DNA from: Escherichia coli O127:H6 str. E2348/69
GTDB taxonomy: Bacteria > Pseudomonadota > Gammaproteobacteria > Enterobacterales > Enterobacteriaceae
Reading direction: 5' to 3' (one strand)
Length of the DNA: 64,000 nt
Assembly: GCF_000026545.1 (NCBI RefSeq)
Contig: NC_011601.1
A program made the translations under genes and the position numbers. The notes beneath the pieces were generated by a model, which did not search any database, had not been told where the DNA came from, and worked only from the letters and a program-made list of their open reading frames with translations. Numbering within the stretch: position 1 is the stretch's first letter; every line of letters begins with the position of its first letter. This document shows positions 29,960 through 30,453 of the stretch, piece by piece.

Positions 29960-29979
29960 TACTGTAAATATAAACAGTG
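29960..29979. promoter_or_regulatory. LexA box (SOS operator)
   Basis: TACTGTAAATATAAACAGTG matches CTGT-N8-ACAG with AT-rich spacer, ~40 bp upstream of Tum-like ATG. Confidence 0.7.
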
Positions 29980-30020
29980 GTTATACATACAGCATTGTGT
30001 GTGGTGTCATAGGAGGAAAG

Positions 30021-30209
30021 ATGCAGGACTATTTTTTGGAGTCTTTGAAGCTCCAGCGCATTGATTTTTTTCTTAAGCTTGTAGCGGCTAGTGAGTGTAG
30101 TGATGAAGAGAAGGGGCTGGCTCTGCAGTGGGTTTCTGAATTGACTGATGAACTTATGGCAAAAATCAGAAGCCACGAATACAACCGCTCAATGGATGTC
30201 ATCAGCTGA
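30021..30209 (+). CDS. Small SOS-regulated protein, possible Tum-like antirepressor
   Basis: AGGAGG RBS at 30011; 62 aa; immediately downstream of LexA box; position equals 186 tum. Confidence 0.45.
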   Translation: MQDYFLESLKLQRIDFFLKLVAASECSDEEKGLALQWVSELTDELMAKIRSHEYNRSMDVIS

Positions 30210-30219
30210 GGTGACTTTT

Positions 30220-30453
30220 ATGCGCATTGAAATAATGATCGATAAAGAGCAGAAGATTAGCCAGTCTACCCTGGACGCCCTTGAATCCGAGCTTTACCGC
30301 AATCTGCGCCCCCTGTATCCCAAAACGGTAATTCGCATTCGCAAAGGTAGCTCTAACGGTGTGGAACTAACCGGACTGCAACTGGATGAAGAAAGAAAAC
30401 AAGTGATGAAAATTATGCAGAAGGTGTGGGAGGACGACAGCTGGCTGCATTAA
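30220..30453 (+). CDS. DinI-family protein
   Basis: 77 aa; MRIEIMIDKEQ...ELYRNLRPLYP...VMKIMQKVWEDDSW resembles E. coli DinI. Confidence 0.7.
   Translation: MRIEIMIDKEQKISQSTLDALESELYRNLRPLYPKTVIRIRKGSSNGVELTGLQLDEERKQVMKIMQKVWEDDSWLH

What the first reader, a model, noticed from the sequence alone, without database searches (positions are those of the whole stretch)
29960..30453. LexA box upstream of a Tum-like small gene and a DinI homolog: SOS-controlled module after gene A
A near-consensus SOS box (CTGT-N8-ACAG, AT-rich spacer) lies ~40 bp upstream of a 62-aa ORF with a strong AGGAGG RBS, followed by a DinI-family gene and a terminator. This is the position of the LexA-controlled tum antirepressor in 186, so the element is probably UV/SOS-inducible, unlike P2. 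The first ORF is much shorter than 186 Tum as I remember it, so it may be a minimal antirepressor or something different. Induction would also switch on the cargo modules and any invertase activity.
Basis: partly seen in the sequence, partly recalled or inferred. Interest (0 to 1): 0.4.

Follow-up and report, generated by a model that had tools for sequence, protein, structure and literature searches.

The report
Split Tum SOS switch of prophage
This is the DNA-damage trigger of a Fels-2/186-type P2-like prophage in E. coli E2348/69: a LexA-repressed two-gene operon for a 62-aa antirepressor (TumA) and a DinI-like protein (TumB), already described and genetically tested in near-identical phages, so it is real but ordinary.

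Summary

**Observation**
- A strong LexA box (29960-29979, 23.6-24.1 bits) is the best site in the 64-kb window. No shuffled window reached its score.
- It overlaps the -10 of a 186-p95-like promoter.
- Downstream lie AGGAGG, a 62-aa ORF (30021-30209), a DinI-family gene (30220-30453) and a GC-rich hairpin.

**What the 62-aa protein is**
- It is homologous to the N-terminal half of 186 Tum. 186 Tum (146 aa) is this domain fused to a DinI-like domain.
- Here the two halves are separate genes, as in PSP3 (tumA/tumB) and Fels-2.
- It is 100% identical to the "tum" gene of E. coli HS phage DuoHS. An in-frame deletion of that gene, or lexA(Ind-), abolishes mitomycin C induction (PMC12055606).

**Context**
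- A 186-type CI, the presumed target, is present and is 91% identical to the HS CI.
- The module occurs in 1124 of 5426 complete E. coli genomes.

**Smaller extras**
- The operator is a colicin-type pair of overlapping LexA boxes.
- A second LexA-occluded promoter precedes int.

Novelty: already known. Interest: low.

The parts
29937..29942 (+). Putative -35 hexamer TTTACA of the tum promoter (equivalent of 186 p95)
   Evidence: It lies 17 nt upstream of TACTGT. It aligns with the annotated -35 (TTCACA) of 186 p95 and with TTTACA/TTCACA/TTCCCA in seven other phages. Inferred by alignment; the consensus promoter scan found nothing because TACTGT matches only 3 of 6 positions of TATAAT.
29960..29965 (+). 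Putative -10 hexamer TACTGT, which is also the left arm of LexA box 1
   Evidence: The 186 record annotates the same arrangement for p95: the -10 is the first 6 nt of the LexA site. It is invariant in alignment A3.
29960..29979 (.). LexA box 1, TACTGTAAATATAAACAGTG
   Evidence: Scores 23.6-24.1 bits, the best site in the window. 0 of 300 shuffled windows reached it. TACTGT-N8-ACAGT is invariant in 8 phages of several Peduoviridae genera whose flanks have diverged.
29975..29994 (.). LexA box 2, CAGTGGTTATACATACAGCA, overlapping box 1 by 5 bp (colicin-type double operator)
   Evidence: Scores 15.6 bits with a matrix that excludes the colicin sites, rank 3 in the window. The chance per position is about 1.6e-6. 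It is conserved in HS (17.1 bits) and Fels-2 (15.6 bits). The 42-nt operator is 88-90% identical to the operators 43-46 nt upstream of cea (colicin E1) and pst (pesticin). LexA binding itself was not tested.
30011..30016 (+). Shine-Dalgarno AGGAGG of tumA
   Evidence: Read directly from the sequence. It lies 4 nt before the ATG at 30021.
30021..30209 (+). tumA: 62-aa antirepressor, homologous to the N-terminal domain of 186 Tum
   Evidence: 100% identical to E. coli HS Tum, ECHS_RS04495. The published deletion endpoints match exactly. Homology to 186 Tum residues 4-43 is shown through a Yersinia 60-aa Tum (E=2e-10 to 186, E=9e-8 to this ORF) and by hhalign (94.8% probability, E=5e-8). Predicted to be a two-helix hairpin, pLDDT 85.6. 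It has no Pfam or NCBIfam family, and PHROG 698 is listed as 'unknown function'.
30198..30215 (+). Small hairpin spanning the tumA stop codon (TGA 30207-30209) and the tumB Shine-Dalgarno (GAGGTGA)
   Evidence: The terminator-like scan reported a 6-bp stem. It could couple tumB translation to tumA; this is inference only.
30220..30453 (+). tumB: 77-aa DinI-family protein
   Evidence: Pfam DinI E=6.6e-23. 41% identical to 186 Tum residues 71-145 and 78% identical to PSP3 TumB. All 8 (HS) and 7 (Fels-2) nucleotide differences are synonymous.
30462..30491 (.). G+C-rich hairpin after tumB; probable weak or bidirectional terminator
   Evidence: RNA fold -21.8 kcal/mol, z=-2.7. It occupies the position of t95a in 186. 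The T run is weak. A convergent minus-strand ORF ends at 30646.
24102..24677 (-). 186-type CI repressor, the presumed target of TumA
   Evidence: Pfam Phage_CI_repr 3e-33 plus Phage_CI_C 7e-27. 91% identical to the E. coli HS DuoHS CI.

Best explanation
This is the SOS operon of a Felsduovirus-type (Fels-2 / DuoHS-like) P2/186-family prophage of E. coli E2348/69. In the lysogen, LexA binds an operator that overlaps the -10 and start region of the promoter lying just after replication gene A, and keeps the operon off. DNA damage activates RecA and LexA cleaves itself. The operon is then transcribed and makes two proteins. TumA is a 62-aa helical hairpin and the free-standing counterpart of the N-terminal domain of 186 Tum. 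TumB is a DinI-like protein and the counterpart of the C-terminal half of 186 Tum. TumA inactivates the 186-type CI repressor by protein-protein contact, without cleaving it, which releases the lytic promoter. TumB most likely modulates RecA filament activity and the SOS response rather than acting on CI.

Shown here:
- the sequence features and their statistical significance;
- the homologies;
- identity with the genetically tested HS gene.

Taken from papers:
- the requirement for tum and for cleavable LexA in HS;
- CI binding by 186 Tum.

Inferred:
- that TumA alone binds this CI;
- the role of TumB;
- that the second box tightens repression.
For: Origin and spread:
- The window is 100% identical to E2348/69, and the module is present in 1124 of 5426 complete E. 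coli genomes.
- It is 95-98% identical to Fels-2 and to many Klebsiella, Salmonella and E. coli P2-like phages.

Operator:
- LexA box statistics.
- The box is invariant across 8 diverged phages and always lies after gene A and before a TumA homologue.
- The 186 record annotates the same promoter and operator layout.

TumA:
- Homologous to the N-terminal part of 186 Tum.

TumB:
- A DinI-family protein, similar to the C-terminal part of 186 Tum.

Published annotation and genetics:
- The PSP3 record names tumA ('UV induction of prophage') and tumB.
- PMC3121763 states that Fels-2 and PSP3 have tum split by a stop codon, with the upstream gene carrying the antirepressor activity.
- PMC12055606: an in-frame deletion of the identical 62-aa gene, and lexA(Ind-), abolish mitomycin C induction.

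Target:
- A 186-type CI and CII are present, and the CI is 91% identical to the HS CI.

Core of the module:
- ESSI-2-like and Yersinia phages carry a LexA box plus a TumA homologue with no DinI gene, so TumA is the conserved core.
- Of 173 family representatives, nearly all are free-standing proteins of 50-75 aa. Only two of the long ones I checked carry a DinI domain.
Against: - No experiment has been done on this prophage.
- Direct BLASTP of the 62-aa ORF against 186 Tum finds nothing, so the homology rests on an intermediate sequence and on profiles.
- I found no biochemical evidence that a free-standing TumA binds CI. The PSP3 result is a personal communication, cited second-hand.
- The HS deletion was not, as far as I read, complemented. 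A polar or translational-coupling effect on tumB is therefore not formally excluded.
- The -10 (TACTGT) is weak, and the promoter scan found no promoter.
- I did not check that the late genes of the prophage are intact.
Confidence: 0.9

Rival explanations
1. The DinI-like TumB is the real inducer, for example by stabilising RecA filaments or acting on CI, and the 62-aa ORF is only an accessory protein or a leader needed for tumB expression.
For: The DinI-like part is the only portion of 186 Tum with a recognised family. tumB is under strict purifying selection, with all differences synonymous. A hairpin spans the tumA stop codon and the tumB ribosome-binding site, so a tumA deletion could lower tumB translation.
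Against: The HS deletion keeps the tumA ribosome-binding site, ATG and TGA and all of tumB, yet abolishes induction. ESSI-2-like and Yersinia relatives keep the LexA box and TumA but have no DinI gene. PSP3 tumA is annotated as the UV-induction gene. dinI deletions in the Gifsy prophages had no effect on induction (PMC3121763). The 186 record describes the short DinI-like Tum forms only as modulators.
Confidence: 0.05
2. The module is an SOS-induced accessory operon that modulates the host SOS response or excludes other phages. It is not the induction switch of this particular prophage, which may be defective or induced in another way.
For: Nothing has been tested in E2348/69. The prophage carries extra cargo: a KAP NTPase, a second CI-like gene, and a phosphoribosyltransferase-like gene with a DprA-like gene. 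This cargo could alter regulation. The BTP5 tum is transcribed, yet no phage is recovered (PMC7067206).
Against: TumA is 100% and CI 91% identical to the functional HS DuoHS system. The CI, Apl-position, CII, A and int genes are intact ORFs.
Confidence: 0.05
3. The LexA-like sequence is a chance AT-rich palindrome and the operon is constitutive or controlled by CI.
For: The loose pattern CTGT-N8-ACAG is expected 0.76 times per window. No consensus sigma-70 promoter was detected.
Against: The full 20-mer scores 23.6-24.1 bits and was never reached in 300 shuffled windows. It is invariant across 8 diverged phages. lexA(Ind-) blocks induction in HS.
Confidence: 0.01

Closest known systems
Coliphage 186 SOS operon (p95-tum-orf97); Tum antirepressor (Brumby 1996 and Shearwin 1998, as cited in PMC3121763 and annotated in NC_001317)
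   Same: Same position directly after gene A. The promoter's -10 (TACTGT) is the left arm of a LexA box. The N-terminal Tum domain is homologous to TumA, and the C-terminal DinI-like part is 41% identical to TumB. Both phages have a 186-type CI/CII switch.
   Different: 186 encodes one 146-aa fusion protein with nested in-frame starts; here there are two genes 10 nt apart. 186 has a single near-perfect box (27.2 bits); here there are two overlapping boxes. 186 has orf97 downstream, whereas this element carries different cargo.
Split tum of Salmonella phage PSP3 (tumA/tumB), Fels-2 (STM2728 / STM2726.1) and E. coli HS DuoHS (ECHS_RS04495 / ECHS_RS04500)
   Same: The same two-gene layout. The DNA is 93-99% identical to Fels-2 and HS. 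TumA is 100% identical to HS and 97% to Fels-2, and TumB is 100% identical to both. Induction in HS depends on tum and on cleavable LexA.
   Different: PSP3 TumA is only about 19% identical and PSP3 has a single box. Fels-2 lacks the LexA box before int. Downstream cargo differs between the elements. No functional difference in the module itself is apparent.
Gifsy-1/2/3 and Fels-1 LexA-controlled antirepressor operons (dinI-gfoA/gftA-irsA) (PMC3121763)
   Same: A LexA-repressed operon in a prophage that pairs a small antirepressor with a DinI homologue. The repressor is inactivated without being cleaved.
   Different: The gene order is reversed, with dinI first. The phages are lambdoid and have a different repressor family. 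I did not test homology between GfoA/GftA and TumA.
Colicin and pesticin SOS operators with two overlapping LexA boxes (PMC2994835; Lu and Chak 1996, cited there)
   Same: Two 20-bp boxes offset by 15 bp. The 42-nt operator is 88-90% identical to those upstream of cea and pst.
   Different: The gene controlled is a prophage antirepressor, not a bacteriocin. In the colicin promoters the -35 and -10 lie upstream of the boxes, whereas here the -10 appears to be inside box 1.

Membership tests
186-type Tum SOS induction module | A LexA operator overlapping the promoter, located directly downstream of replication gene A | tested here: met
   Box at 29960-29979 scoring 23.6-24.1 bits, 94 nt after the stop of gene A (29866). 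It aligns with the annotated LexA site and -10 of 186 p95.
186-type Tum SOS induction module | A protein homologous to the N-terminal (antirepressor) part of 186 Tum | tested here: met
   Direct BLASTP was negative. A Yersinia 60-aa Tum links the two (E=2e-10 and E=9e-8). hhalign gives 94.8% probability, E=5e-8.
186-type Tum SOS induction module | A DinI-like moiety, fused or adjacent | tested here: met
   PF06183 scores 81 bits against a cut-off of 24.2. 41% identical to 186 Tum residues 71-145. Relatives that lack it show that it is not universal.
186-type Tum SOS induction module | A cognate 186-type CI repressor (Phage_CI_repr plus Phage_CI_C, with no self-cleavage site required) | tested here: met
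   The CI at 24102-24677(-) matches both Pfam domains and is 91% identical to the HS CI.
186-type Tum SOS induction module | The gene is required for SOS induction of the prophage | not testable with these tools
   Reported for the identical protein in E. coli HS (PMC12055606). Not tested in E2348/69.
186-type Tum SOS induction module | The protein binds CI and blocks its binding to the operator | not testable with these tools
   Reported for full-length 186 Tum (Shearwin 1998, as cited in PMC3121763). I found no data for a free-standing TumA.
DinI family (PF06183) | A sequence match above Pfam's gathering score over the full domain | tested here: met
   81.3 bits, profile positions 1-63 of 63. 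PDB DinI (1ghh) matches the same region of 186 Tum. The NCBIfam DinI equivalog scores below its cut-off (42.7 against 111), so TumB is a paralogue and not host DinI.
DinI family (PF06183) | Binds RecA filaments and modulates SOS | not testable with these tools
   Inferred from the family. The 186 record says the short DinI-like Tum forms 'modulate SOS induction'.
Colicin-type double SOS operator | Two LexA boxes that overlap, offset by 15 bp | tested here: met
   Boxes at 29960-29979 and 29975-29994. They align with the cea and pst operators.
Colicin-type double SOS operator | Two LexA dimers bind, giving tighter and later derepression | not testable with these tools
   Known for colicins (PMC2994835). 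Not tested for tum.

The most novel reading that the evidence does not exclude
The Fels-2-group prophages, including this one, may have rewired 186-type SOS induction in two ways that I did not find described. First, the tum promoter carries a colicin/pesticin-type double LexA operator, 88-90% identical over 42 nt to the operators of cea and pst. This would hold the lethal antirepressor off until LexA is deeply depleted. Second, in the subset where cargo genes separate int from cI, int has its own near-consensus promoter (TTGACC-17-TTAAAT) whose spacer is a LexA box. Derepression and excision would then both be wired directly to LexA.
Probability: 0.4. Interest if true: 0.35.

Novelty: already known. 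Interest (0 to 1): 0.2.

Why it matters
**Biology.** The module predicts that this EPEC prophage, and similar ones in about a fifth of complete E. coli genomes, are induced by DNA-damaging antibiotics through an antirepressor rather than by repressor cleavage.

**Annotation.** The TumA family has no Pfam or NCBIfam model, and its PHROG is listed as 'unknown function'. It is therefore annotated as 'hypothetical protein', or wrongly as 'levan regulatory protein', in RefSeq and in phage records, despite genetic evidence for its role. A family model would correct that annotation across these genomes and phage records.

**Regulation.** The double operator and the LexA-controlled int promoter are small, testable refinements.

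Tried and rejected
- Direct BLASTP of the 62-aa ORF against 186 Tum gave no alignment. An intermediate sequence and profile comparison resolved this.
- The consensus promoter scan found no promoter. Its rules exclude a TACTGT -10.
- The terminator scan reported only the small hairpin at the tumA/tumB junction, not the hairpin after tumB.
- Rfam found nothing in 29500-31300.
- A PDB sequence search for TumA gave no meaningful hit.
- NCBIfam has no TumA family.
- The search for homologous proteins listed only close relatives (82% identity or more) among its best 120 hits, so it did not help with distant homology.
- Bunny et al. 2002, the primary source for the split tum of Fels-2, is not held. 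I cite it only through PMC3121763.
- A literature search for 'tumA/tumB' returned only noise.
- A search for induction of the E2348/69 P2-like prophage found nothing relevant.
- A search for a LexA-controlled int promoter in P2-like phages found nothing.
- My first gene coordinates were off by one. They are corrected.
- I did not run a fold search on the TumA model, because a two-helix hairpin would give uninformative matches.
- The alternative GTG start at 29997 (70 aa) was rejected. The ribosome-binding site precedes the ATG at 30021, and the homologues start at the equivalent position.

Full report
**Origin and context.** The 694 bases around the finding are 100% identical to the chromosome of E. 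coli O127:H6 E2348/69. Similar sequence is present in 1124 of 5426 complete E. coli genomes. In the phage collection it is 95-98% identical to Fels-2 and to many Klebsiella, Salmonella and E. coli P2-like phages.

The surrounding genes are those of a 186/Fels-2-type early region:
- int (20446-21498, minus strand)
- a 186-type CI (24102-24677, minus strand; Pfam Phage_CI_repr plus Phage_CI_C)
- a small ORF in the Apl position
- CII (Pfam CP76)
- a DNA methylase
- replication gene A (27452-29866)
- the finding, followed by cargo genes and the portal gene Q (33074-34102, minus strand)

**Checking the observation.** CTGT-N8-ACAG occurs once in the window (29962-29977). That loose pattern is expected 0.76 times by chance, so on its own it proves nothing.

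The full 20-mer TACTGTAAATATAAACAGTG (29960-29979) is another matter:
- It matches the LexA consensus at 17 of 20 positions, and 0 of 100 shuffles gave such a match.
- I built a symmetrised weight matrix from 24-26 E. coli LexA sites. I recalled these sites from memory (Lewis 1994; Fernandez de Henestrosa 2000). The heterology index values I remembered for recA, lexA and umuDC agree with PMC2994835.
- The site scores 23.6-24.1 bits and ranks first of 63,981 positions.
- This is above the leave-one-out mean of the genuine sites (19.2 bits), and none of 200 and 300 shuffled windows reached it.

The box ends 41 nt before an ATG at 30021, which is preceded by AGGAGG (30011-30016). The 62-aa ORF runs 30021-30209. 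The DinI-family gene runs 30220-30453 (Pfam PF06183, E=6.6e-23).

After it lies a 7-bp G+C-rich hairpin (30462-30491, -21.8 kcal/mol, z=-2.7) with a poor T run. 'Terminator' is therefore plausible but weak. A convergent minus-strand ORF ends at 30646, so the hairpin may serve both strands.

**Promoter.** The consensus scan found no promoter. The 186 record, however, annotates p95 with a -10 of TACTGT, which is the left arm of its LexA site, and a -35 of TTCACA 18 nt upstream. The window has TTTACA (29937-29942), a 17-nt spacer, then TACTGT (29960-29965).

I aligned the regions upstream of the tum genes of eight phages: this window, E. coli HS, Fels-2, Cronobacter ESSI-2, ESSI2_ev015, a Yersinia phage, PSP3 and 186. 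TACTGT-N8-ACAGT is invariant and the -35-like hexamer aligns, while the flanks have diverged to a mean column identity of 59%. In each distant relative a 23-29-bit LexA box lies about 20-45 nt upstream of a TumA homologue placed after gene A. This is a good phylogenetic footprint.

**What the 62-aa ORF is.** It has no Pfam or NCBIfam family, and it falls in PHROG 698, 'unknown function'. Direct BLASTP against 186 Tum finds nothing.

Homology to 186 Tum is nevertheless clear:
- A 60-aa Yersinia phage protein annotated 'tum protein' matches 186 Tum residues 4-42 (46% identity, E=2e-10).
- The same Yersinia protein matches this ORF at residues 11-44 (35% identity, E=9e-8).
- A profile-profile comparison of the two groups gives 94.8% probability, E=5e-8, aligning residues 7-43 of the window ORF with residues 7-43 of 186 Tum.

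The DinI-like gene is 41% identical to 186 Tum residues 71-145. So 186 Tum (146 aa) is a fusion of a TumA-like domain and a DinI-like domain.

The PSP3 record names the two genes tumA ('similar to 5' end 186 tum; UV induction of prophage') and tumB ('similar to dinI and 3' end of 186 tum'). Lemire et al. 2011 state that Fels-2 and PSP3 have tum split by a stop codon and that in PSP3 the upstream gene carries the antirepressor activity (PMC3121763, citing Bunny et al. 2002, which I could not read).

A search of 1.84 billion cluster representatives found 173 family members. Almost all are free-standing proteins of 50-75 aa. Only two of the long ones I checked carry a DinI domain. ESSI-2-like and Yersinia phages have TumA with no DinI gene. 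The free-standing form is therefore the rule, and TumA is the conserved core.

AlphaFold predicts a two-helix hairpin (helices 2-23 and 28-61, pLDDT 85.6). The conserved Cys26 lies in the turn.

**Experimental evidence from a near-identical phage.** Ortiz de Ora et al. (PMC12055606) deleted 'tum' (locus ECHS_RS04495) in the P2-like prophage DuoHS of E. coli HS, fusing its start and stop codons.
- Their junction primers read GTGGTGTCATAGGAGGAAAGATG|TGAGGTGACTTTTATGCGCATTG. Both halves occur exactly once in the window, at 30001-30023 and 30207-30229.
- ECHS_RS04495 is the 62-aa ORF immediately upstream of a DinI-like gene.
- Its product is 100% identical to the window protein. TumB is also 100% identical, and every nucleotide difference is synonymous.
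- The tum deletion and lexA(Ind-) strains show no mitomycin C lysis and no viral foci, while the tum deletion strain keeps a normal SOS reporter response.
- The window CI is 91% identical to the HS CI and nearly identical over the DNA-binding domain, so the same antirepressor-repressor pair is expected to work here.

**Mechanism, with status of each step.**
- LexA occupies the operator over the -10 and start site. This is supported by sequence statistics, by conservation, and by the HS lexA(Ind-) phenotype. Binding itself was not tested.
- SOS induction derepresses tumA-tumB. This is inferred for this strain and shown genetically in HS.
- TumA inactivates CI without cleavage. This is inferred from homology to 186 Tum, for which CI binding is reported in Shearwin 1998 as cited in PMC3121763. 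I found no biochemistry for a free-standing TumA.
- TumB probably modulates RecA and the SOS response. This is inferred from the DinI family and from the 186 annotation that the short DinI-like Tum forms 'modulate SOS induction'.
- The tumB Shine-Dalgarno overlaps the tumA stop codon inside a small hairpin (30198-30215), which suggests translational coupling. This is speculation.

**A detail beyond the finding: a double operator.** A second box, CAGTGGTTATACATACAGCA (29975-29994), overlaps box 1 by 5 bp.
- It scores 15.6 bits with a matrix that excludes colicin sites, ranks third in the window, and has a chance per position of about 1.6e-6.
- It is conserved in HS and Fels-2 but absent from 186, PSP3, ESSI-2 and the Yersinia phage.
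- The 45-nt Fels-2 operator matches 1212 plasmids. The two hits I inspected lie 43-46 nt upstream of cea (colicin E1) and pst (pesticin), and the alignment shows the same two-box layout.

By analogy the double operator would tighten and delay tum expression. This is inference, and I do not know whether it was noted in Bunny et al. 2002.

**Verdict.** The module is a member of a described kind, and its key protein is identical to one already tested genetically. Novelty is 'already known' and interest is low. Residual value lies in the annotation gap for the TumA family and in two small regulatory refinements: the double operator and the LexA box at the int promoter. The first downstream gene is on the opposite strand, behind a hairpin.

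Noticed in passing
window 21530-21549 (box); promoter on the minus strand about 21524-21555; int ATG at 21498: A second strong LexA box, AACTGTATGTTTGACCAGTG (18.7 bits, rank 2 in the window). It fills the spacer of a near-consensus minus-strand promoter, TTGACC-17-TTAAAT, 32 nt upstream of int. The same arrangement occurs in E. coli HS DuoHS (23.7 bits) and in Klebsiella phages 4LV2017 (21.1) and KP12 (24.9). It is absent from Fels-2, where int abuts cI. This suggests SOS-controlled int expression where cargo separates int from cI. I found no paper describing it.
   Followed up: partly
window 29975-29994: The tum operator of the Fels-2 group is a colicin/pesticin-type pair of overlapping LexA boxes, 88-90% identical over 42 nt to the operators upstream of cea and pst. 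186, PSP3, ESSI-2 and Yersinia relatives have a single box.
   Followed up: yes
window 23128-24051 (-): A 307-aa CI paralogue with two tandem Phage_CI_repr helix-turn-helix domains and one Phage_CI_C domain. It is 55% identical to the adjacent 191-aa CI. Similar long forms occur in Klebsiella P2-like phages, where two CI-like places are found per record, and PSP3 cI is also long at 286 aa. It could be a second immunity repressor, or a sink for TumA that shifts the induction threshold.
   Followed up: partly
window 21585-23102 (-): A 505-aa KAP-family P-loop NTPase (Pfam E=9e-46) inserted between the CI paralogue and int. It is probably anti-phage or accessory cargo.
   Followed up: no
window 30646-33049: Cargo between tumB and the portal gene. 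It comprises a 111-aa minus-strand ORF with no family, then on the plus strand a 191-aa weakly phosphoribosyltransferase-like ORF overlapping a 324-aa DprA/SLOG-like protein (PF02481, E=1e-60). Fels-2, HS and 186 carry different genes in this slot. This is the variable region where P2 carries tin and old (my own knowledge, not checked here).
   Followed up: no
window 30021-30209 and homologues: Annotation gap. The genetically supported TumA antirepressor family has no Pfam or NCBIfam model, and PHROG 698 is listed as 'unknown function'. Records call it 'hypothetical protein' or 'levan regulatory protein'. Many database entries are extended at the N terminus to 84-101 aa from wrong start codons.
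   Followed up: partly
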